A stretch of 8,739 nucleotides of DNA from a virus (taxonomy: Duplodnaviria > Heunggongvirae > Uroviricota > Caudoviricetes): positions 1-8,739 of the IMG/VR virus record IMGVR_UViG_2681813233_000012; one strand, 5' to 3'. This document shows positions 40 to 8,739 of this stretch, piece after piece; the stretch's first letter is position 1, and the number at the start of each line of letters is the position of its first letter. The position numbers and the translations under genes are program-made. The notes beneath the pieces were generated by a model. That model searched no databases and was not told the DNA's origin. It worked only from the letters and a program-made list of their open reading frames with translations.

Positions 40-1866
40 ATGCCAGGGCCCAACGAAAGCGACAATTTCCCAGTAGAATCTGCGACGGCAAATACCGTAG
101 TAAGTGGTGATTATGCTGGAGGCCAGATAGCGATGAAAATCGTCAAGCAGGCTGAGTTCGACTACTTCATGGGGCTCGTGCTACCGCATTCTGTCACCTT
201 TACAATTAATGTCACCTACAACACTACATCGGGCAGCGTTACAGAAGATGTGCTTTTCTCAGGTACGCTGATTTCTGCTGTAGAGAGTGATGATGGTTCC
301 TTGATAGACCATGTTCAGTGGTACACGTTCACCATGACAGATTTGCAGGGACCGCCAACAGTTCCATCTACTGCCACCATTAACACGACAAAATTCATTC
401 TCAATGATAACGAGGCGCTTGTTGTGGGGCCTTTCTTCTCGCCTGTTGAGTCAACTGAGCTGTGGCTGCATACACAGTCATCACTTGGTGGCGGTAACTG
501 GACGGACTGGACGGTAACAATCTGGAAAATTGACGACGATTACAATCAGATCCCCGGAACTCAGCAGGCCTTCACCTATCATCAGGGAACGCCGCATAAG
601 TCGACCAGCGAAGTGTTTTATCGCACCGATAAAATAATTCCAGCAGGAGGGTTTGGTAAATACGCCATCAACTTCCAGCGTACAAACAACTCCAATGATG
701 CCTCTATCCTGAAGGTCGAAGAGATTCACGCCGTTAATATTCGCAGCAATGTGGTTCACCCGACTGATACGCTTGTTCGTGTGAAGGTCAGGGCGACAGA
801 GAATGCACTGGGTAGCCGTGACCGCAAATACAACGCCATGGTGACTCGCCACACCATCAGTTACAACCTGACGACACAGTCCGTGGATTACACATTACGG
901 CCGTCTCGGTCGTTTGCTGACGCGGTGGCGCATACCTGGCTTGTAATGGGAGGCCAACCAGAAAACAGTATTGATCTGTACGGCCTGTACTCTATCGTGG
1001 AAAGCCTGCCTGATGAGCGGCTGGGCTACTTCGACTACACGTTTGACGATGAGAACGACTCACTTGGTGACAGGGTGCAGGCGATCTGCAATGCAGCATC
1101 CGTCATGGCGTACTGGGATGACGGTGTGCTGACATTCACCCGCGACCAGAAGGTTGATTATCCTGCTGCTGTATTCAACCGGGCCAACATGAAGACAGAC
1201 GAGTACAAAATTACGTACGAAGCCACTCTTCCCGGAGGTTACGACGGCGTTCAGGTCTCCTACGTTCATCCGACTACGAATAACAAGACGTACATCAACT
1301 ACCGCGTTCTGAACGGCGTTATCGTCGAGCAGGAAGCTGAGAACCCAAACAAGCTTGAGATAGTAGGATTCCGTAACGAGTACCAGGCTCGTGAGCGAGC
1401 GTTACGCGAAACAAAGCGGCTTATCTACTCCCGGGTGAAGATGAATGCCAAGGTATTTGAGGACGGGATTATCCAGGTGGGCAGCGTTATCCAGATGCCG
1501 GATATCTACGACAGCAACCAGCAGCAGGGTTACATCACCGGCCGCACTGGGAATAACTTCGATACGAGCGAACCAATCAAGTTTACCGGAACGATGTATG
1601 TTCTGGTTACTGACAGCTTGGGCAATCCAACACTGCGTTATCCGGCAACGGCCCGCAGCGACACGAAATATGGATTTACTGCAGCAATACCCACCATTCA
1701 GCTCAACATATGGAACGGAGACACTGTGCAGCTCCCGTCGCGCTATCTCATAGCGACCGTAGAAGAGTTAGATAGTCAATTATGGACAGTCAACAGCATC
1801 AAACCGAACACTGACAATACGGTATCCCTGATCGTCGCAGAGTACAGCGACTCAGTCTACGGATAG
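40..1866 (+). CDS. Phage virion structural protein, 608 aa (tail-associated or ejection-type protein; family not recognised)
   Basis: Long uninterrupted ORF with ATG at 40 and an in-frame TAA at 1..3 just upstream, so the ORF is complete. AGGAG lies immediately 5' of the ATG. The protein is Thr/Asn/Ser-rich and beta-like, and sits directly upstream of the tailspike gene. Product assignment is by position and composition only. Confidence 0.8.
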   Translation: MPGPNESDNFPVESATANTVVSGDYAGGQIAMKIVKQAEFDYFMGLVLPHSVTFTINVTYNTTSGSVTEDVLFSGTLISAVESDDGSLIDHVQWYTFTMTDLQGPPTVPSTATINTTKFILNDNEALVVGPFFSPVESTELWLHTQSSLGGGNWTDWTVTIWKIDDDYNQIPGTQQAFTYHQGTPHKSTSEVFYRTDKIIPAGGFGKYAINFQRTNNSNDASILKVEEIHAVNIRSNVVHPTDTLVRVKVRATENALGSRDRKYNAMVTRHTISYNLTTQSVDYTLRPSRSFADAVAHTWLVMGGQPENSIDLYGLYSIVESLPDERLGYFDYTFDDENDSLGDRVQAICNAASVMAYWDDGVLTFTRDQKVDYPAAVFNRANMKTDEYKITYEATLPGGYDGVQVSYVHPTTNNKTYINYRVLNGVIVEQEAENPNKLEIVGFRNEYQARERALRETKRLIYSRVKMNAKVFEDGIIQVGSVIQMPDIYDSNQQQGYITGRTGNNFDTSEPIKFTGTMYVLVTDSLGNPTLRYPATARSDTKYGFTAAIPTIQLNIWNGDTVQLPSRYLIATVEELDSQLWTVNSIKPNTDNTVSLIVAEYSDSVYG

Positions 1867-1922: not shown

Positions 1923-4298
1923 ATGGCCACCCAACCAACAAATAACGCAGTGCCAAGCGAATCACCCCGTGATCTGAAGTTTAACGCGGGGAAAATTGAT
2001 GAGTTCGTTACGTCTGAGAATCATGATTATGTTGACAGATTTGGCAATAAACATCGTACAATTGAAGGCATAAATTACGATTCGAACCAGGCAATTCTGA
2101 ATTATGGCTATATCACGAAGGATTCTTTTGAAGATGGCAGCACCATTAGCCTTGCTAACGAGTGCTTACGCTGGAAGAGCAACGGCGAGTACTACAGATG
2201 GGATGGGTCACTCCCCAAAGTAGTTCCCCCTGGCTCTACTCCGGAAGGCACTGGTGGGCTAGGGAAAGGTAAGTGGGTTGGTGTCGGAGATGCATCTTTG
2301 CGATCGGCAATGAAGAATGAGAATGGTACTGATTTAATTAATGGAACAAAATCTGTTGTTGGGTCAGTTACAAGATCACTAACAGATATGTTGTCAGACA
2401 AGATATCCGTGCGGGATTTTGGCGGAATTGATGACTATGATGGAACAAATGCATCAACATGCACTAACAACAGAATTCCATTTCAACGGTATTTTGAATA
2501 TCTTAATTCAATTGGCGGTGGCGATCTAAATATTCCACGTAAATTAACCGGGAAATATTTTATTAGTGGTGATGACCACACACAAGTTACCTCTAAAGTT
2601 CGTTTAAATACTGACGAAGGTGTATCTATACATCTTGATTTCTCTGGAGGTGCTTCAAATACTCCATTTGCCAATCTCGATTTAAGGGCATCGAGCCAGA
2701 TAAAGATTGAGTATGTTAATTTTGGTTATCCGTCATATGTTGGTGGTAGCGTAGACACGCCATTTAGTGACTCTTTGCAAACCATGAACAATGGTGATGG
2801 TATTTACACGGTGCCAGAAGTACTATCAGGTAGTGATTTTAAAGTCATTTCATTGGGAAATAGCTCTGTTGAAATACCACCGTTATCAACATCCGGAGAT
2901 ACAATCTCTTTTAATGGCGGAGGGGTTCCAACTGCAGCAGTCATCAGCGTGACTCCTGGTGACGAAATTATGGCGTTAATAGGCTCGAATTCGCTTGGGG
3001 GAATTATTGCCGGTGTCGTCACGGTTAATGGCTATGCTTATGTTTCTCAAGATACTTCTAGTGGTAATATTACCCTTGCAGAAGGCACGATAGGGCAGCC
3101 AAATATACTAACTGGTCTTAATTATGCTCTCATGGATCAGCTAAGAGATCGGTTTGACCGTGCTATCATAACAGTAAAAATTACTTCATCGAGAACCTTT
3201 ACCGTTATGGCTAACGGTCTGGCAATATGCAGTCATACCACCAGGTCTAGTATTCTTGGCGCTTGTCTTGGTACTTCCGACATTAATAGTATTGTGAATG
3301 TATCACAAATGTCTCGAGTTAGAGGGCATAGTTTTTCCGGGTCCAAGCCTTTGAGGATATTGGTTTGCGGAGATTCAATTACCGATCAAAATAATCAATA
3401 TTCATGGGCCAAATATCTCCAGATGCAGTTGGGCTCAGCTGGCGTTAACATTGCAGAGATAAATAATTTAGCAGTGGCTGGACAGACAGCGGCCCAACAA
3501 CTCAGCATCCTGAAAACTGTTGGTGTAGGATATGATATCTGCCTGATACAGGTTGGTGTAAATGATGTTCAGTTACAGACTCCGGTAGCATCCTTCATTT
3601 CGACAATAAATGAAATGGTCACTTACGCGAAGGGGATTGGAGCATTTCCGATTGTTGGTGTACCCACGGCTTTTTATTCTCTTGCAGAGGCGAATGCTAA
3701 TGGGCAAACGGGAGGGCAAAACACATCAAACAACTCTTCGATAGGGATGTACCGATCGCTTCTTATTCGTGCTGTTGCAGCAGCTGGCGGAATTGTTAAC
3801 CTTGAGCCTATGAAAGGACATGGAGCTATGACGGCTAAGTGGCTGTCACTGAAACCGTATGCCGTCAGCGATAGCATCGTGCTGGACAATATTCACCCCA
3901 CTCCATATGGGTCGATGCTCCTGGCACAAGGATATGCGCGATGCATTCTTGGATGGCTTACTAGGCCTGACATGACACCAACGGAAAGCTTTGAATTTAT
4001 TCCTAGCGGGTGGCTTAGCCCAGGATTTGGCGAAACATCGATCCCTAAAATTAAAGGAAGGGAGTTCTCTGGGTTGATAAGTCTGCATGCAACAAATATC
4101 AATGATGGTTCAGTGGCCTTCACTTTGCCACCATCATTTAAAGTAGATAACGTTAAGATGCTTGCGGTGACAGGGACAAACAGTTCCGGGCTTCCGGTAG
4201 GTGTTTGTAATTTATATGTTGGGACAGACGGGAAGTGTTACTTCTTTAATATTCCAGAAGGAGTTACCCAAGTATCAATGGACGGTGTGGTTTTATAG
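1923..4298 (+). CDS. Tailspike / tail fibre protein with a C-terminal SGNH-hydrolase (polysaccharide esterase) domain, 791 aa
   Basis: N-terminal ~115 aa adaptor-like region, then a segment typical of the start of pectate-lyase-like beta-helix tailspikes (ISVRDFGGIDDYDG...IPRKLTGKYFISGDD). All SGNH blocks are present in order: GDSIT (Ser485, nt 3375..3377), block II Gly in NLAVAGQT (Gly520), GVNDV (Asn547), DNIH (Asp655/His658, nt 3885..3896). A further ~130-aa C-terminal domain follows. Confidence 0.85.
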   Translation: MATQPTNNAVPSESPRDLKFNAGKIDEFVTSENHDYVDRFGNKHRTIEGINYDSNQAILNYGYITKDSFEDGSTISLANECLRWKSNGEYYRWDGSLPKVVPPGSTPEGTGGLGKGKWVGVGDASLRSAMKNENGTDLINGTKSVVGSVTRSLTDMLSDKISVRDFGGIDDYDGTNASTCTNNRIPFQRYFEYLNSIGGGDLNIPRKLTGKYFISGDDHTQVTSKVRLNTDEGVSIHLDFSGGASNTPFANLDLRASSQIKIEYVNFGYPSYVGGSVDTPFSDSLQTMNNGDGIYTVPEVLSGSDFKVISLGNSSVEIPPLSTSGDTISFNGGGVPTAAVISVTPGDEIMALIGSNSLGGIIAGVVTVNGYAYVSQDTSSGNITLAEGTIGQPNILTGLNYALMDQLRDRFDRAIITVKITSSRTFTVMANGLAICSHTTRSSILGACLGTSDINSIVNVSQMSRVRGHSFSGSKPLRILVCGDSITDQNNQYSWAKYLQMQLGSAGVNIAEINNLAVAGQTAAQQLSILKTVGVGYDICLIQVGVNDVQLQTPVASFISTINEMVTYAKGIGAFPIVGVPTAFYSLAEANANGQTGGQNTSNNSSIGMYRSLLIRAVAAAGGIVNLEPMKGHGAMTAKWLSLKPYAVSDSIVLDNIHPTPYGSMLLAQGYARCILGWLTRPDMTPTESFEFIPSGWLSPGFGETSIPKIKGREFSGLISLHATNINDGSVAFTLPPSFKVDNVKMLAVTGTNSSGLPVGVCNLYVGTDGKCYFFNIPEGVTQVSMDGVVL

Positions 4299-4332: not shown

Positions 4333-5412
4333 TTAATTGTAAGGGGTTTCTCTTTCCATTTCTAAAACTATGGCTCTGAAATTTCTATTAAACTCATAAC
4401 CAGGTTTATTATGTAACTCTGCATTTATGCAGTCTCCTAGAAGAGAACTTCTGATTCTAGCACCATACCCATTGGTATGATAAGCAGAGTCCATAAATAA
4501 TTTTCCTCCAAGATTAGACGCGCTTGGTGCGCAAATAACGTTAATACCAGCAACAGAAAGCAAACCCTTAAGTTTCATTAACGACTGCATGGTTTGTCCA
4601 TTATCAGTGTCAAACCCCGGATTTCGCATCGTAACAGGCCATGTAATAAATAATTTCCCACCTTTATTAGAAACAAAATTATTTATTTCCTTGAGTGTTG
4701 TATATGTATGTTCAGATATTTTAGGAATGTCTGAGTTATATGTAAATGTGCCATTATACACAGAATCGTAAACAGTTTTACCGTCAATAAAAACATTGAT
4801 GTCACCGTTTTTATTTAGACTTTTATAACTGTACCCATTATATTCACCATTGGTAGAGTTAAGATGATTGATGACATCACTCAACGGTGAAACCAGGCCT
4901 TTATCTTCTGCATTAAATCCTTCAACTAACCTTTTGGGGCTAACATTCATCATGAACTTTATACGGTTATAAATGTTGATGCTTGATAGGTAATCCTGGC
5001 CCCACCCCAATATATTATTAACAAACCAATCAGTTGGTGCTTCCGTACGTGTGTAGTACTCATACTCAAGCGGCATTACAACGATATCACCATTTTTAAA
5101 ATGCTTTTTTAATTGATAAAAATGATAGTTTATATCTAGCTCTGCATGCGTTGCAATATTTACAACTGGAAGTGATGTTTTATGGGAAATAATTTCACTA
5201 TTTATAGAAAATAAGCTATTCGACCCGCTAGAGATTATTATTTTTTTCCCATTTATCCTGTCAGCGGCAACGCCTTTAAAATCAATTACGTTCTTTAGCC
5301 ACCACCCACCTACAACCTGCTTTCCTTCCTGCATTTTGAAAGCATAAATAAACGTCCCAGCGGCAAATGCAAGTATTGCTAAGAATATAGAGAAGCTGAA
5401 TTTATAATTCAC
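4333..5412 (-). CDS. Membrane-anchored SGNH/DltD-like (PatB/AlgJ-class) protein, predicted periplasmic partner of the upstream MBOAT acyltransferase, 359 aa
   Basis: GTG start at 5410..5412 preceded by AAGGG 6 nt upstream, 9 bp after the MBOAT stop, suggesting an operon. N-terminal hydrophobic anchor (FSIFLAILAFAAGTFIYAF). Ser-rich motif IISSGSNS (res 59..66) near the N-terminus and DSAYH (Asp308/His312) near the C-terminus, the SGNH-like order of nucleophile then Asp/His. Very AT-rich. Confidence 0.6.
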   Translation of the reverse strand: MNYKFSFSIFLAILAFAAGTFIYAFKMQEGKQVVGGWWLKNVIDFKGVAADRINGKKIIISSGSNSLFSINSEIISHKTSLPVVNIATHAELDINYHFYQLKKHFKNGDIVVMPLEYEYYTRTEAPTDWFVNNILGWGQDYLSSINIYNRIKFMMNVSPKRLVEGFNAEDKGLVSPLSDVINHLNSTNGEYNGYSYKSLNKNGDINVFIDGKTVYDSVYNGTFTYNSDIPKISEHTYTTLKEINNFVSNKGGKLFITWPVTMRNPGFDTDNGQTMQSLMKLKGLLSVAGINVICAPSASNLGGKLFMDSAYHTNGYGARIRSSLLGDCINAELHNKPGYEFNRNFRAIVLEMERETPYN

Positions 5413-5421
5413 TGTTCGCCC

Positions 5422-6267
5422 TTAAAAATTGAAGTAAATAAAGGATCCGGGAGCCGCCCCACCCAAGGAAGCAGTCACTGCAATGCAAACGCCAAAGGCA
5501 CACAGGCATGGAGCAAGCAGATTCCACGCTATACCACTCTTATGTTCTTTGGTCATCTCCATGAAAACATTAGAATTTACATTAATTAAGCACGTCATAA
5601 TGGCAATGGCGCAAACAGCTATCATATAGAAACCACCTTTCGATGCCTCATAGAGGAAAGAGTCCGCAAAAGGTTGAGCATATTTAAATCCGGAAACCAA
5701 AGAATCGTAACCAGCAAACATTTTCTTTAGCAAACTAAAAGCATCATTTAAGTTATCTGTTCTGAAGAAAATCCAGGTGATATTCACGTAATTGAATGTT
5801 ATAAACCAACCTACAACGCTCGGCATGCGAAAGCCATTTTGTGACCAATACCTGTGAATGACAAGCCCAGCCCCGTGTAAAGCGCCCCACGCCAAAAAAT
5901 TCCATCCAGCTCCATGCCAGAAACCGCCGATCAAAAACGTCAAAAACAGGTTTAGATATGTGCGTAATACACCATTTCGGTTTCCGCCAAGAGGAATGTA
6001 GACATAATTCCTGAGCCACGTGGAAAGGGTAATGTGCCAGCGTCTCCAGAAATCTTGAAGGTCTGTTGCTATGTATGGTGAATTGAAGTTGATAGGCAGC
6101 ACAACGCCAAACAGAAGGGCCGAGCCAATCGCCATGTCAGTATATCCGGAGAAATCAAAGTATAACTGGATACTGTATGAGAGGCTGGTTATCCATGCCT
6201 CCAAAGCACCAAGGGCTGAGATATTTGCATAACCTTGATCCGCTATAGAGCCAAAATATGAAGACAA
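5422..6267 (-). CDS. MBOAT-family membrane-bound O-acyltransferase (AlgI/DltB/PatA-like), C-terminal portion; the frame is open upstream to 6357
   Basis: Contains the MBOAT signature region: YFDFSGYTDMAIG, FWRRWHITLSTWLRNYVYIPLGGNR and GGFWHGAGWNFLAWGALHG (conserved His). The ORF-track start at 6267 is a TTG; the same frame stays open to a TAA at 6358..6360. Confidence 0.8.
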   Translation of the reverse strand: MSSYFGSIADQGYANISALGALEAWITSLSYSIQLYFDFSGYTDMAIGSALLFGVVLPINFNSPYIATDLQDFWRRWHITLSTWLRNYVYIPLGGNRNGVLRTYLNLFLTFLIGGFWHGAGWNFLAWGALHGAGLVIHRYWSQNGFRMPSVVGWFITFNYVNITWIFFRTDNLNDAFSLLKKMFAGYDSLVSGFKYAQPFADSFLYEASKGGFYMIAVCAIAIMTCLINVNSNVFMEMTKEHKSGIAWNLLAPCLCAFGVCIAVTASLGGAAPGSFIYFNF

Positions 6268-6334
6268 GACAACTTTTTTGAATATTCCGACACTAAATAT
6301 AAATACTGCGGGAACGAAATATTTCCCGAAATAA

Positions 6335-6859
6335 TTATCCCTTGAGTTGGTTTGTAATTACATCATAATTTGTTATCGGGCCAGAGATGAGCTTAGGGAA
6401 AAACAAAATGTAGCAGCAATAATTTAATATTGAAATGTTAGATATCTGTTTTCTATACAAACTAACTGATAAAGAAATCTGCTGAAATGTATAGAAGCTT
6501 ATGGCTAACGGCGCAATAACATTCATGTGGCCTATATTTAGGTTGAAAATACTAGATATGTTACTTGCAAAGAAGTTGCAGTATTTAAAATAACCAAGAG
6601 ATGCCACGTTAAATATAACTGATAATGCTACATATAATTTTGTCTTTTCAGATTTCATCATTGTTAATATTGCGTAGTTTATCAGCATCGATATCAACAA
6701 AAGAGGCAAGAAATTAAATGTGAAAAAAGTATAGAAATACAGGCTAGCGCAACAAATCCACACCTTGGAGAGAGCAATGTTAAATTTTTTCAGGAAAAGG
6801 AATATCAATACCACCAAAGGTAAAAACATTACAGAATATTCTAACGAGTTAAATAACAT
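6335..6859 (-). CDS. MBOAT-family O-acyltransferase, N-terminal portion (same gene as 5422..6267, separated by a frameshift)
   Basis: ATG at 6857..6859 with AAGG/AGGGA upstream. Typical AlgI/DltB N-terminus: multiple TM helices, ISFYTFQQISL and FFPKLISGPI motifs. Ends at TAA 6335..6337 in a frame offset by one from the C-terminal portion. Confidence 0.8.
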   Translation of the reverse strand: MLFNSLEYSVMFLPLVVLIFLFLKKFNIALSKVWICCASLYFYTFFTFNFLPLLLISMLINYAILTMMKSEKTKLYVALSVIFNVASLGYFKYCNFFASNISSIFNLNIGHMNVIAPLAISFYTFQQISLSVSLYRKQISNISILNYCCYILFFPKLISGPITNYDVITNQLKG

Positions 6860-7110
6860 GCCTTATCCCTTATATAAGTTATCAATCAAGTTTAAACCGC
6901 TATCAGAACACCAAATTCGCTTATCCATTCATGAACCTCTTCCACGCGCAATCTGCAACCACACTTAACATCCATGGTATTAACTTTAATTCCTAAAATT
7001 AGTGACATGGAGTTTACCACTACAGAGAAATCTGATCATTACTTGATCGAAAGAAGGGAACGTGGTGCTGTGCGTATACACAGCAATGGTCGGAGAAGCA
7101 TCTCTGATCC
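6860..7110 (-). promoter_or_regulatory. Putative regulatory region of the MBOAT operon (RBS, weak sigma70-like elements, cluster of three GATC sites)
   Basis: Shine-Dalgarno-like AAGG immediately 5' of the ATG. Candidate -35/-10 (TTTAAA / TATATA on the - strand) has sub-optimal spacing. GATC at 7034..7037, 7045..7048 and 7106..7109. No experimental support. Confidence 0.3.
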
Positions 7111-7405
7111 CATATGCTCGCTCTTTGGTGGTTTGCAGAATGGAAGGCGAGTTGAGGATAAGGCGATATCGTAAATCATCAACTCCTCACCTGGAGGAAT
7201 TGCAGACGGGGAGGCGTAAAAGATACCAGTGCACGATGACGGAACTAGCCCGGATGCGATCTTTGGGATGTTCACCTACATCATCCACGATGTTCGCTCT
7301 GACGAGTTCGACGACTTTCTGGTGATGTGATGGGGCATGGATGAGGAAAACATTATCGAAAACAACCCAAAACAGATGGAGTTGAGAGGTGTCTTGCACC
7401 ATTTC

Positions 7406-8560
7406 TCACAACTTACCATCAAGCCAGTCTGCCCACCACTGCATCATCTCCCTGCGCTTATCCATGTACTGAGCGTGATTGTATATCCCACGAATGGAGC
7501 CGCTGTTAGCGTGCGCCAGTTGCTTCTCTATGGCATCAGCAGGCCACTCGTGCTCATTCATTATTGTGCTGAACTGGTGCCGGAAACCATGTCCACTGGC
7601 GAGGCCCTCGTAGCCTATCTGCCGAATAACCAGCAGAACGGCGTTTTCACTGAGCGGCTTTGTTTTGTCATTGCGCCCGGCGAACACGAAGCTTGATATC
7701 GGCTGCGTTACCGGCCTCAGGGTTTCAAGCAAAGAGACAACTTGATCTGACATTGGGACAAGGTGGGGGCGGCGGCCTTTCATCACCTCTTCGGTGATCG
7801 TAATCGTCCTGGTTTCGAAATCGACGTTCGACCATTGCATAGACCTGAGTTCTTTAGTCCTGAGCACGGTGTACTGCAATACCTGCGTCGCAATCTTCGA
7901 TACGATGCTGCCAGAGAAGCCAGCCAGAGCCTTATTGAATTCCGGTATCTGGTCTGCAGGAAGGAAGGGGTAGTTCTTTTTCCGGTATCCCTTCATGGCA
8001 TCAGCAAGGTCAGGAGCCGGGTTATATTTCGCTCTCCCGGTAACTATCGCGTACCTGAATACTTCCCCGCACCTCCTCCGCGCCTTATTGGCCCGCTCCA
8101 TTGCTCCACGGTCTTCGAACCTGCGGATCACTTCCAGTATCTGCATTGGTTCTATCTCGTTAATCTCCATCCCGCCAATCAACGGCAGAATGTCATCCTG
8201 GAACATGCGTGACAGTTCGGTGCTGTACACTTCTGACCATACCTGTTTTTTGTGCTCGTACCATTCTTGGTATATAGAGCCGAAAGAGTTGTCTTTAACT
8301 GACAGTTTTTTAGCCTTTACAGGATCGACGCCGAGAGACACATCCTTTTTGGCAAGCCAAGCTTTGTCTCTGGCTTCCTGCAATGACATGAGCGGGTATT
8401 TGCCTACCGTCAGAACCTTCTCTTTACCATCGAGCTTGTAACGCAGCTGCCAGACTTTCTTTCCGGTAACCGGAACATAAAGGTACAGTCCGTTGCTGTC
8501 GAGTAGCCGGTACGGTTTATCTTTCGGCTTTGCCGCGTCGATCTGCTTGATGGTGAGCAT
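7406..8560 (-). CDS. intS: Tyrosine integrase, P4/IntS-type (site-specific recombinase with N-terminal arm-binding domain), 384 aa
   Basis: N-terminus MLTIKQIDAAKPKDKPYRLLDSNGLYLYV is typical of P4-family integrases. Catalytic-domain motifs HGFRHQFST (HxxR) and a C-terminal Tyr region (IRGIYNHAQY). It sits next to the 3' end of an argW-type tRNA in the same orientation, as for IntS of the E. coli K-12 CPS-53/KplE1 prophage. The symbol is assigned by this context and recalled similarity, not by a search. Confidence 0.9.
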   Translation of the reverse strand: MLTIKQIDAAKPKDKPYRLLDSNGLYLYVPVTGKKVWQLRYKLDGKEKVLTVGKYPLMSLQEARDKAWLAKKDVSLGVDPVKAKKLSVKDNSFGSIYQEWYEHKKQVWSEVYSTELSRMFQDDILPLIGGMEINEIEPMQILEVIRRFEDRGAMERANKARRRCGEVFRYAIVTGRAKYNPAPDLADAMKGYRKKNYPFLPADQIPEFNKALAGFSGSIVSKIATQVLQYTVLRTKELRSMQWSNVDFETRTITITEEVMKGRRPHLVPMSDQVVSLLETLRPVTQPISSFVFAGRNDKTKPLSENAVLLVIRQIGYEGLASGHGFRHQFSTIMNEHEWPADAIEKQLAHANSGSIRGIYNHAQYMDKRREMMQWWADWLDGKL

Positions 8561-8585
8561 GGGTAAAATTCCGGAGGGTAAAATT
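8561..8585 (+). repeat. Two direct copies of GGGTAAAATT (8561..8570, 8576..8585) abutting the int start codon
   Basis: Exact 10-bp direct repeat separated by 5 bp (CCGGA). On the - strand it reads AATTTTACCC-TCCGG-AATTTTACCC-ATG. Confidence 0.6.
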
Positions 8586-8595
8586 ATTTACTCGT

Positions 8596-8625
8596 TTTTT
8601 ACCCGCCGAAGCATGCGGCTGTCAA
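8596..8625 (-). promoter_or_regulatory. Candidate sigma70 promoter for int (-35 TTGACA, 18-bp spacer, -10 TAAAAA)
   Basis: On the - strand, TTGACA (8620..8625) and TAAAAA (8596..8601) are separated by 18 nt, ~35 nt upstream of the int ATG. Confidence 0.35.
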
Positions 8626-8634
8626 CGTTCTATT

Positions 8635-8714
8635 GCGAACTATGGCGAACTAATATTTTATTGAGAGCTTGCTGTGTAAGGGATTTTGCGAACTACTGCG
8701 GAGAGTGGCGAACT
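8635..8714 (+). repeat. Four direct copies of GCGAACT (8635..8641, 8645..8651, 8688..8694, 8708..8714): candidate integrase arm-type binding sites in the att region
   Basis: Heptamer repeated four times in the same orientation, in two pairs, between the tRNA 3' end and the int promoter. Arm-type sites of P4/lambda-family integrases are short direct repeats in this position. Confidence 0.5.
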
Positions 8715-8720
8715 GTGAAA

Positions 8721-8739
8721 TGGTGTCCCCTGCAGGAAT
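8721..8739 (-). tRNA. argW: 3' end of a tRNA-Arg gene (argW-type, anticodon CCU), partial: only the last 19 nt including CCA are in the window
   Basis: Reverse complement of 8721..8739 is ATTCCTGCAGGGGACACCA, which matches my recollection of the 3' terminus (T-arm, acceptor stem, CCA) of E. coli argW. The gene continues beyond the window end. Confidence 0.6.

What the first reader, a model, noticed from the sequence alone, without database searches (positions are those of the whole stretch)
8561..8739. Prophage/host junction at tRNA-Arg with repeated GCGAACT motifs overlapping the int promoter region
The window ends inside the 3' end of an argW-type tRNA, so this is an att junction, and the phage-side arm carries four direct GCGAACT copies plus a near-consensus -35 (TTGACA) for int. 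Arm-type integrase sites overlapping the int promoter would allow autoregulation of int at the junction, as I recall being described for the KplE1/CPS-53 prophage at argW in E. coli K-12. The exact core and crossover point cannot be defined from this window alone.
Basis: partly seen in the sequence, partly recalled or inferred. Interest (0 to 1): 0.5.

Follow-up and report, generated by a model that had tools for sequence, protein, structure and literature searches.

The report
Prophage attL at argW, excisionase sites
This is the left junction of an E. coli prophage inserted in the argW tRNA gene, a well-studied type of junction; the repeated GCGAACT words are real, but they match the known binding sites of the phage excisionase, not of the integrase.

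Summary
Four direct GCGAACT copies lie at 8635, 8645, 8688 and 8708. A perfect TTGACA lies on the int strand at 8625..8620. The last 19 bases of the window are the 3' end of argW, tRNA-Arg(CCU). Other assemblies with an identical junction carry the whole tRNA.

The region is orthologous, site for site, to attL of the KplE1/CPS-53 prophage and to attP of HK620 and Sf6. The GCGAACT repeats (AGTTCGC on the int strand) fall on the five published TorI excisionase (RDF) sites I1-I5, which have a GTTCG core and a 2+3 layout. I5 abuts the -35 and is degenerate here (GAACG).

The integrase arm-type sites are a different repeat. They are GGGTAAAA copies at 8561-8604, and one of them overlaps the -10 (TAAAAA).

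Three comparisons support this split:
- GTTCG is absent from the P arm, while GGGTAAA occurs on both arms.
- The GGGTAAAA class changes together with the Int N-terminal domain.
- The GTTCG class changes independently of Int.

The likely mechanism is Int autorepression at the -10 and RDF repression at the -35, alongside RDF-directed excision. This has been published for KplE1. The finding is ordinary and of low interest.

The parts
8721..8739 (-). 3'-terminal 19 nt of argW, tRNA-Arg(CCU). The tRNA is cut off by the end of the window, which is also the end of the contig.
   Evidence: Identical to K-12 argW in the alignment. The full tRNA is found by ARAGORN in six contigs with the identical junction.
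8720..8735 (-). att core CTGCAGGGGACACCAT, 16 nt. This is the segment shared by attL, attR, attP and attB, and it contains the crossover.
   Evidence: Same 16-mer as the duplicated KplE1 core (PMC2951348). Homology between this attL and free-phage attP sequences ends at its outer edge. It is duplicated at both ends of the related L73 prophage.
8708..8715 (-). RDF (TorI-type excisionase) site I1, CAGTTCGC.
   Evidence: Maps onto published TorI site I1 of KplE1. The GTTCG pentamer is invariant in 12 attL/attP sequences.
8688..8695 (-). RDF site I2, TAGTTCGC, 12 nt from I1.
   Evidence: Maps onto published site I2, which is GTCCG in K-12.
8645..8652 (-). RDF site I3, TAGTTCGC.
   Evidence: Maps onto published site I3. 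The pentamer is invariant.
8635..8642 (-). RDF site I4, TAGTTCGC, 10 bp from I3. In KplE1 this site is needed for TorI repression of intS.
8625..8632 (-). RDF site I5, degenerate (TAGAACGT). It is 10 bp from I4 and abuts the -35, overlapping it by one base.
   Evidence: It aligns with K-12 I5 (CAGATCGT) and is a perfect GTTCG in the Erwinia phages. Whether it works here is inferred, not shown.
8620..8625 (-). -35 hexamer TTGACA of the int promoter, orthologous to PintS.
   Evidence: Invariant in all 12 close relatives, and TTGAC is invariant in 20 genera-wide loci. PintS was mapped by primer extension in K-12 (PMC2951348).
8596..8601 (-). -10 hexamer TAAAAA, 18 nt downstream of the -35.
   Evidence: Identical to the K-12 PintS -10.
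8589..8590 (-). Predicted int transcription start (T, A), by orthology with the K-12 start.
   Evidence: The K-12 start sites are the T and A that lie 6-7 nt after the -10 (sequence). The same TA is found here. This is inferred.
8597..8604 (-). Int arm-type site P'1-like, GGGTAAAA, overlapping the -10. This is the probable autorepression site.
   Evidence: The paper states that P' sites carry TAAA and that P'1 overlaps the -10. The block is invariant. GGGTAAAA occurs 3 times in the window, all here, and 1 of 200 shuffles reach 3.
8586..8593 (-). Degenerate arm-type copy GAGTAAAT (GGATAAAA in K-12).
   Evidence: Alignment. The assignment is by motif only.
8576..8583 (+). Int arm-type site GGGTAAAA, inverted relative to P'1.
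   Evidence: The HK620 record annotates this stretch as attP repeats.
8561..8568 (+). Int arm-type site GGGTAAAA, directly abutting the int ATG.
7406..8560 (-). int: an IntS-type tyrosine integrase of 384 aa, 82% identical to K-12 IntS.

Best explanation
Positions 8561-8739 are the attL junction of an E. coli prophage integrated in the 3' end of argW. The junction belongs to the KplE1/HK620/Sf6 recombination module.

Reading from the tRNA towards int, the junction contains:
- the 16-nt core;
- two RDF sites (I1, I2);
- a poorly conserved spacer of about 35 bp;
- three RDF sites at 10-bp phasing (I3, I4 and a degenerate I5) that run into the -35 of the int promoter;
- the -10, overlapped by an Int arm-type site;
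- three further arm-type copies that reach the int ATG.

The GCGAACT repeats are the binding sites of the prophage's small winged-helix excisionase (a TorI/HkaC homologue). This protein binds them cooperatively to shape attL for excision. Through the two promoter-proximal sites it also blocks RNA polymerase at the -35 and so lowers int transcription.

The integrase N-terminal domain binds the GGGTAAAA sites. Through the copy over the -10 it represses its own promoter, which keeps Int low and constant in the lysogen.

The sequence orthology, site positions, conservation and co-variation are shown here. Binding and repression in this particular element are inferred from the KplE1 experiments.
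For: Orthology with KplE1
- Column-by-column alignment with K-12 attL is possible.
- The published TorI blocks land on window 8715..8688 and 8652..8625, which cover the four GCGAACT copies plus the degenerate fifth. These blocks are 28 nt each: two 8-mers 12 nt apart, and three 8-mers 2 nt apart, with cores GTTCG/GTCCG/GATCG.
- The paper shows that I4 and I5 mediate TorI repression and that IntS represses via sites at the -10. It also states that P' sites carry TAAA.
- attL has five cooperative TorI sites by EMSA (PMC3509656).

Integrase
- Int is 82% identical to IntS, and its arm-binding domain is conserved.

Conservation across relatives
- In 12 attL/attP sequences from E. coli, Shigella, Erwinia and Klebsiella phages, the I pentamers, the -35, the -10/P'1 block and the P' copies are invariant or nearly so. 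The spacers between them vary. For example, the I3 and I4 pentamers are 5/5 invariant, against 7/34 positions in the I2-I3 spacer.
- Motif offsets from the core are identical in all of them.

Which arm carries which motif
- The P arm of 9 relatives has two GGGTAAA copies and no GTTCG. The TAAA motif is therefore on both arms, as Int bridging requires. GTTCG is on one arm only.

Co-variation with the proteins
- In more distant modules the two repeat classes change independently of each other.
- The P' class follows the Int N-terminal domain. The Tatumella punctata Int is a chimera. Its N-terminal part is 77% identical to the Kluyvera type and 56% to the window. Its C-terminal part is 80% identical to the window. 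Its P' repeats are of the Kluyvera-type GGGCATAT class.
- The I class follows neither Int domain.

Excisionase in relatives
- Every relative with a visible other side of the core has a 66-67-aa TorI homologue there.
- The residues needed for attL binding (F15, M17, F22, Y28, R45, A46) are invariant in these homologues.

tRNA and host
- The tRNA and the E. coli host flank are confirmed on longer contigs.
Against: - No protein-DNA binding or expression data exist for this element.
- The RDF gene and attR are not in the window, because the contig ends 4 nt past the core. I could not reach them, so the prophage may have lost its RDF.
- I5 differs from GTTCG at two positions (GAACG), where K-12 has one change (GATCG). 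RDF repression at the -35 may therefore be weaker here.
- The exact borders of the published sites are uncertain by 2 nt. The paper's coordinates convert to NC_000913.3 with an offset of 1980 if anchored on the ATG, but 1978 if anchored on the start sites.
- The papers that first mapped the sites (JBC 2007, Virology 2010) were not available. The P' borders rest on the 'TAAA' statement plus conservation.
- The generic promoter scan did not report this promoter. Its rule needs a T at the last -10 position, and it accepts spacers of 16-18 nt.
Confidence: 0.9

Rival explanations
1. The GCGAACT repeats are arm-type binding sites of the integrase, and Int autoregulates int by binding them next to the -35.
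For: The repeats are real, direct, phased and promoter-proximal. Int has an arm-binding domain. Int autoregulation at this junction type is published.
Against: - The orthologous K-12 positions are experimentally TorI sites. IntS arm sites are the TAAA-containing P' sites.
- GTTCG is absent from the P arm of all 9 relatives examined, while GGGTAAA is on both arms.
- Across lineages the Int N-terminal domain co-varies with the GGGTAAAA/GGGCATAT class and not with the GTTCG class.
Confidence: 0.04
2. The sites are a relic. The prophage is defective or has lost its RDF, so the GCGAACT repeats are conserved sequence without a current function. Only Int autorepression would remain.
For: The RDF and attR could not be seen for this prophage. 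Every contig found stops inside the prophage about 7.6 kb beyond int. I5 is degenerate. KplE1 itself is a 10-kb remnant.
Against: - Four sites are perfect copies. All other module elements are intact and identical in at least 8 independent assemblies.
- The window carries intact tail and tailspike genes.
- The closest complete relative (L73) is a 44.8-kb prophage with the RDF and both core copies.
- Even the KplE1 remnant keeps torI and still excises (PMC2951348).
Confidence: 0.07
3. The repeats are bound by some other regulator, either a host factor or the phage repressor, and are unrelated to recombination.
For: None specific. The only point in favour is that no binding was tested here.
Against: The site-for-site orthology with mapped TorI sites. 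The repeats keep a fixed distance from the att core in all relatives, including free attP sequences.
Confidence: 0.02

Closest known systems
attL / PintS of the KplE1 (CPS-53) prophage at argW in E. coli K-12 (Panis et al. 2007, 2010; PMC2951348)
   Same: - Same host gene (argW) and the same 16-nt core.
- Same order and spacing: core, I1-I2, spacer, I3-I5, -35 TTGACA, 18 nt, -10 TAAAAA, P' sites, ATG.
- Same distance from the tRNA end to the ATG: about 160 nt here, 161 nt in K-12.
- Int is 82% identical.
   Different: - I2 is a perfect GTTCG here (GTCCG in K-12).
- I5 is GAACG here (GATCG in K-12).
- The spacers and the middle of the promoter spacer differ.
- The element here carries tail, tailspike and acyltransferase genes next to int, rather than the gtr genes of a 10-kb remnant.
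- The RDF and attR were not seen here.
attP of the P22-like phages HK620, Sf6 and CUS-3, and of Erwinia phage Midgardsormr38 and Klebsiella phage vB_Kpn_Chronis
   Same: Same P' arm architecture and the same core. In those phages a TorI homologue (100% to 82% identical to TorI) and two GGGTAAA copies lie on the other side of the core.
   Different: Those are unintegrated attP sites with both arms. Here only the P' arm is visible, fused to the tRNA. Identity of the junction DNA is 77-84%.
Lambda attP with Xis and Int
   Same: It works in the same way. A heterobivalent Int binds core and arm sites, and a small winged-helix RDF binds phased direct repeats in one arm to direct excision. This comparison rests on established knowledge and on the introduction of PMC2951348.
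   Different: In lambda the Xis sites lie on the P arm (attR), and int is transcribed from PI/PL outside att. Here the RDF sites lie on the int-proximal arm and the int promoter is inside attL. Int and the RDF therefore both repress int, and int and the RDF gene are transcribed separately.
Satellite phage P4 int regulated by Int and Vis
   Same: The integrase gene is down-regulated by both the integrase and its RDF (cited in PMC2951348).
   Different: Vis is proposed to act on the mRNA, whereas TorI-type proteins bind DNA at the -35. P4 integrates at a different tRNA and has different sites. This was not examined here.

Membership tests
KplE1/HK620/Sf6 argW recombination module (IntS/TorI) | Insertion in the 3' end of argW, tRNA-Arg(CCU), with the core CTGCAGGGGACACCAT regenerating the tRNA end | tested here: met
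   Window 8735..8720 equals the core. The last 19 nt equal the argW 3' end. The full tRNA-Arg(CCT) is present in six contigs with the identical junction.
KplE1/HK620/Sf6 argW recombination module (IntS/TorI) | An IntS-type tyrosine integrase with an N-terminal arm-binding domain, transcribed away from the tRNA and starting about 160 nt after it | tested here: met
   82% identity to IntS over 384 aa. PF13356 plus PF00589 are present. The 160-nt spacing is seen in 20 loci across genera.
KplE1/HK620/Sf6 argW recombination module (IntS/TorI) | Five RDF sites on the int-proximal arm in a 2+3 layout, with a GTTCG-type core, the last next to the -35 | tested here: met
   Four perfect copies and one degenerate copy lie at the published positions.
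KplE1/HK620/Sf6 argW recombination module (IntS/TorI) | The int promoter (TTGACA / TAAAAA) lies inside attL, with a TAAA-containing Int arm site over the -10 | tested here: met
   The sequence is identical to K-12 over the -35, the -10 and the P'1 block. Promoter activity itself was not tested.
KplE1/HK620/Sf6 argW recombination module (IntS/TorI) | A TorI/HkaC-type 66-aa RDF gene at the far end of the prophage, next to the P arm | not testable with these tools
   The window is a whole 8739-base contig, and all contigs found stop inside the prophage. The feature is met in relatives: L73, L099, HK620, Sf6, and the Erwinia and Klebsiella phages.
KplE1/HK620/Sf6 argW recombination module (IntS/TorI) | A second copy of the core at attR | not testable with these tools
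   It could not be reached for this prophage. It is met in the closest complete relative, L73, with copies 44.8 kb apart, and in K-12.
KplE1/HK620/Sf6 argW recombination module (IntS/TorI) | The RDF and Int bind these sites and repress int | not testable with these tools
   Experimental for KplE1 only.
   There is no GTTCG or CGAAC in the P arm of 9 relatives. GGGTAAA occurs twice there.
   The GTTCG class changes (TCCAT, TCCGC) in lineages that keep the window-type N-terminal domain. It also differs between T. punctata and Kluyvera, which share an N-terminal domain type. The GGGTAAAA/GGGCATAT class follows the N-terminal domain.

The most novel reading that the evidence does not exclude
The window itself shows nothing new. 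The comparison set, however, suggests that this argW module is a fixed scaffold with swappable specificities.

In more distant Enterobacterales the two repeat classes keep their exact positions relative to the core and the promoter, but each is replaced by a different word.
- The RDF class appears as GTTCGC, GTAAAC, GNGAAC, GTTACC or TCCAT.
- The Int arm class appears as GGGTAAAA or GGGCATAT.

The two classes change independently of each other. A natural Int chimera in Tatumella punctata carries the N-terminal domain that matches its arm-site word. This would be a ready-made series of orthogonal Int-arm and RDF-site pairs, which I have not seen described.

A smaller variant of the idea concerns the degenerate I5 here and the one-repeat deletion in L088. 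These may tune how strongly the RDF shuts off int.
Probability: 0.45. Interest if true: 0.3.

Novelty: already known. Interest (0 to 1): 0.1.

Why it matters
It matters little beyond correct annotation. The junction is another copy of a recombination module whose sites, promoter and double negative control of int were worked out experimentally in E. coli K-12.

The useful correction is that the conspicuous direct repeats next to the int -35 are excisionase sites. The integrase arm sites are the less conspicuous GGGTAAAA copies around the -10 and the ATG. Anyone designing footprinting or reporter experiments on this fragment, or annotating att arms automatically from the most obvious repeat, would otherwise test the wrong protein.

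The cross-genus comparison hints at modular swapping of site specificity. This could interest people who build orthogonal integrase/excisionase tools.

Tried and rejected
- ARAGORN on the window found no tRNA. This was expected, since only 19 nt of the tRNA are present. The question was settled with longer contigs.
- The generic promoter scan missed the int promoter and reported only a weak site inside int. I rejected that site as irrelevant.
- The papers that first mapped the sites are not held in the library: JBC 2007, doi 10.1074/jbc.M701827200, and Virology 2010, PMID 20494389. Site positions come from the coordinates and text of PMC2951348.
- The conversion of those coordinates is ambiguous by 2 nt (offset 1978 versus 1980). 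This does not change which motifs are covered.
- No complete E. coli genome among 5426 carries this exact prophage. The best match is 87.6% identity over int and attL. I therefore checked attR and the RDF in the relative L73 only.
- Most IMG/VR prophage contigs are trimmed at the int start and were of no use for the att arm.
- I did not search for the RDF of this very strain. The look-up tools return at most 10 places for a protein that is common in E. coli, so finding the same sample was unlikely.
- An IHF site in the I2-I3 spacer was considered by eye only. K-12 has TATCAA there, while the window has CAGCAA. I make no claim about it.
- Python could read only some of the fetched loci, so the phage loci were aligned with the alignment tool instead.

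Full report
**What is in the sequence**

The int ORF runs from 8560 down to 7406 on the - strand. It encodes 384 aa with an arm-DNA-binding domain (PF13356) and a tyrosine recombinase catalytic domain (PF00589).
- GCGAACT occurs four times in the whole window. All four are on the + strand, at 8635, 8645, 8688 and 8708. Chance expectation is 0.73, and no shuffle out of 200 reaches four.
- On the int strand these copies read (T/C)AGTTCGC.
- TTGACA lies on the int strand at 8625..8620. An 18-nt spacer and TAAAAA (8601..8596) follow.
- The last 19 bases, read on the - strand, are ATTCCTGCAGGGGACACCA.

**The tRNA and the host**

ARAGORN finds nothing in the window, because only the tRNA's end is present. 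A look-up of the exact Int protein showed that the window is the complete contig LOOX01000240.1 of assembly GCA_001576375.1. It also returned longer contigs with the same Int. Six of these contigs carry a complete tRNA-Arg(CCT) ending exactly where the window's fragment ends. In the one I read through (L005), the sequence between the tRNA and int is identical to the window. The host flank on those contigs (yfdC, mlaA) is 100% identical to E. coli chromosomes.

**Orthology with KplE1**

The region aligns column by column with attL of the KplE1/CPS-53 prophage of E. coli K-12. Int is 82% identical to IntS.

Panis et al. 2010 (PMC2951348) report the following:
- The duplicated core is CTGCAGGGGACACCAT.
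- The intS promoter is TTGACA / TAaAAa, and its start sites were mapped by primer extension.
- There are five TorI (RDF) sites in two blocks. I1 and I2 are 12 nt apart. I3, I4 and I5 are 2 nt apart.
- The TorI site cores are GTTCG, GTCCG and GATCG.
- I4 and I5, next to the -35, are required for TorI repression of intS.
- The IntS arm-type P' sites all carry TAAA.
- P'1 overlaps the -10.
- IntS represses its own promoter about five-fold.

Transferring the published coordinates through the alignment puts the two TorI blocks on window 8715..8688 and 8652..8625. These are the four GCGAACT copies plus a fifth, degenerate copy (TAGAACGT) whose last base is the first T of the -35.

One caveat applies. 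The coordinate offset is 1980 if anchored on the ATG and 1978 if anchored on the mapped start sites. The site borders are therefore uncertain by 2 nt. This does not change which motifs are covered. A second paper confirms five cooperative TorI sites on attL by EMSA (PMC3509656).

**Where the integrase arm sites are**

GGGTAAAA occurs three times in the window, all between the -10 and the ATG. The copies are at 8597-8604 on the int strand, overlapping the -10, and at 8576-8583 and 8561-8568 in inverted orientation. A degenerate GAGTAAAT lies at 8593..8586. These match the description of the P' sites. The HK620 record annotates the same stretch as attP repeats.

**Independent checks of the assignment**

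These checks do not rest on the paper's site labels.

- Conservation. I compared 12 attL/attP sequences from E. coli prophages, HK620, Sf6, CUS-3, two Erwinia phages and two Klebsiella phages. The I pentamers, the -35, the -10/P'1 block and the P' copies are invariant or nearly so. The spacers between them are not. All motifs sit at identical offsets from the core.

- Arm distribution. On the other side of the core (attR or the P arm of attP), nine relatives have two GGGTAAA copies directly after the stop codon of a 66-67-aa TorI homologue, and no GTTCG at all. An Int arm motif should be on both arms, and GGGTAAA is. GTTCG is on one arm only.

- Co-variation. I examined 20 IntS-like modules from different Enterobacterales genera. 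Eighteen sit next to a tRNA-Arg(CCT) called by ARAGORN. Most have the same 160-nt distance from the tRNA to int, and the rest fall within 158-164 nt. The two repeat classes keep their positions but change their words, independently of each other.
  - Tatumella saanichensis and Rosenbergiella keep GGGTAAAA but have TCCAT or TCCGC in place of GTTCG.
  - Kluyvera, Izhakiella and two Pantoea species have GGGCATAT, with GTTACC or GNGAAC.
  - The Int N-terminal domain follows the GGGTAAAA/GGGCATAT class.
  - The clearest case is Tatumella punctata, whose Int is a chimera. Its N-terminal 95 aa are 77% identical to Kluyvera and 56% to the window. Its remaining 289 aa are 80% identical to the window and 64% to Kluyvera. 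Its arm-class repeats are GGGCATAT, while its other class (GTAAAC) matches neither relative.

The class that includes GCGAACT is therefore read by a protein other than Int.

**The excisionase in relatives**

The TorI homologues found next to attP or attR are 80-100% identical to TorI. They keep every residue whose mutation impairs attL binding: F15, M17, F22, Y28, R45 and A46.

**The far end of the prophage**

I could not reach it for this strain. The contig ends 4 nt past the core, and every other contig stops inside the prophage.

In the closest complete relative, E. coli L73, int and attL are 87.6% identical to the window and the I3-to-ATG stretch is nearly identical. There a 44.8-kb prophage is bounded by TGCAGGGGAC(A/G)CCAT. 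One copy lies in argW. The other lies next to a TorI-like gene beside dsdC.

A free attP from IMG/VR (L099, Int 88% identical) shows this order: RDF gene, two GGGTAAAA copies, core, I1-I5, promoter, int. Homology between the window-lineage attL and these attP sequences starts at TGCAGGGGACACCAT. This defines the core at 8720-8735.

The rest of the window fits a prophage end. It holds a J-like tail protein truncated by the contig start, a tailspike with a GDSL esterase domain, an acyltransferase module on the other strand, and a UmuD-like remnant.

**Mechanism**

Sequence orthology, positions, conservation and co-variation are shown here. Binding and regulation are inferred from KplE1.
- In the lysogen, int is transcribed from the promoter inside attL. 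The predicted start is at 8590/8589.
- Int is held low by its own N-terminal domain binding the GGGTAAAA copy over the -10.
- On induction, the RDF is made from the other prophage end. It binds the five phased sites cooperatively: 10-bp steps for I3-I5, and 20 bp between I1 and I2. This bends attL for excision.
- Through I4 and I5 the RDF occludes the -35. This sets a high RDF:Int ratio and prevents re-integration.
- I5 is degenerate here (GAACG), so the -35 occlusion may be weaker. This is untested.

**Verdict**

The att-junction and KplE1 parts of the interpretation are supported. The label 'arm-type integrase sites' for GCGAACT is not supported, because these repeats are the excisionase sites. 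The system is already known and was dissected experimentally in K-12, and this is one more copy of it. Interest is low. The only mildly new material is the cross-genus pattern of independent word swaps at fixed positions and the natural chimeric integrase. I did not follow these to the RDF side.

Noticed in passing
window 8736-8739 (contig end); L010: The window is a complete contig that stops 4 nt beyond the att core, inside argW. An independent Logan assembly (L010) stops 10 nt further out. Contig breaks right at the core might reflect a mixed population (attL plus excised attP/attB) splitting the assembly graph, or they might be coincidence.
   Followed up: no
L032, L036, L039-L042, L044, upstream 180 nt of int (alignment A5): In more distant IntS-like modules at tRNA-Arg(CCT), the two repeat classes keep their positions but change sequence, independently of each other. 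The RDF class appears as GTAAAC, GNGAAC, GTTACC, TCCAT or TCCGC. The arm class appears as GGGCATAT or GGGTAAAA.
   Followed up: partly
L032:1501-2652 (Tatumella punctata): A natural chimeric integrase. Its N-terminal arm-binding domain is 77% identical to the Kluyvera type and 56% to the window. The rest of the protein is 80% identical to the window and 64% to Kluyvera. Its arm-class repeats match the N-terminal domain type.
   Followed up: yes
L088:1270-1421: A 96%-identical Int with a tRNA-to-ATG distance of 150 nt instead of 160. Exactly one 10-bp repeat unit is missing (I3 then I5, with no I4). This is a natural one-site deletion next to the -35.
   Followed up: no
L020:49835-49849 versus 5013-5027; several rows of A5: In E. 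coli L73 the core copy inside argW reads GGGGACGCCA, while the attR copy reads GGGGACACCA. The phage-donated tRNA 3' end therefore changes the discriminator base (position 73) from A to G. Strand exchange must lie 5' of that base. The same G is seen in Dryocola, Pantoea stewartii, Edwardsiella, P. latae, Izhakiella and P. alvi. The window has A.
   Followed up: partly
window 4333-6859 (- strand): A probable lysogenic-conversion module lies between the tailspike and int. It has a 359-aa ORF with no family hit, a 281-aa MBOAT protein that matches only the C-terminal half of the Pfam model (positions 171-318 of 337), and a 174-aa ORF with no hit just upstream. The last two may be a split or unusually organised O-acyltransferase. 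The adjacent tailspike (1923-4298) carries a GDSL esterase domain, which suggests an acetylate/deacetylate pairing on the receptor.
   Followed up: partly
window 7062-7325 (+ strand): An 87-aa ORF with UmuD-like (S24 peptidase) similarity lies next to int. E. coli L73 and Erwinia phage Midgardsormr38 have a full S24 peptidase or 'CI' gene at that position. Here it looks like a shortened remnant.
   Followed up: no
window 40-1866 (+ strand): The 608-aa ORF matches positions 279-892 of a 903-position tail-protein profile (phrog_469, J-like). It is called as 681 aa or more on other contigs. The gene is probably cut by the contig start, and the ATG at position 40 is not its real start.
   Followed up: partly
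window 8602-8619 (int promoter spacer): The flanks of the 18-nt promoter spacer (GCCGCA ... GGCGGG) are conserved and partly self-complementary, while its centre varies freely among relatives. This could be part of the P'1 site or have some other role.
   Followed up: no
L023: An 85%-identical IntS-like integrase sits at the start of a contig binned into an 'uncultured Solirubrobacteraceae' MAG. This is most likely a mis-binned enterobacterial contig.
   Followed up: no
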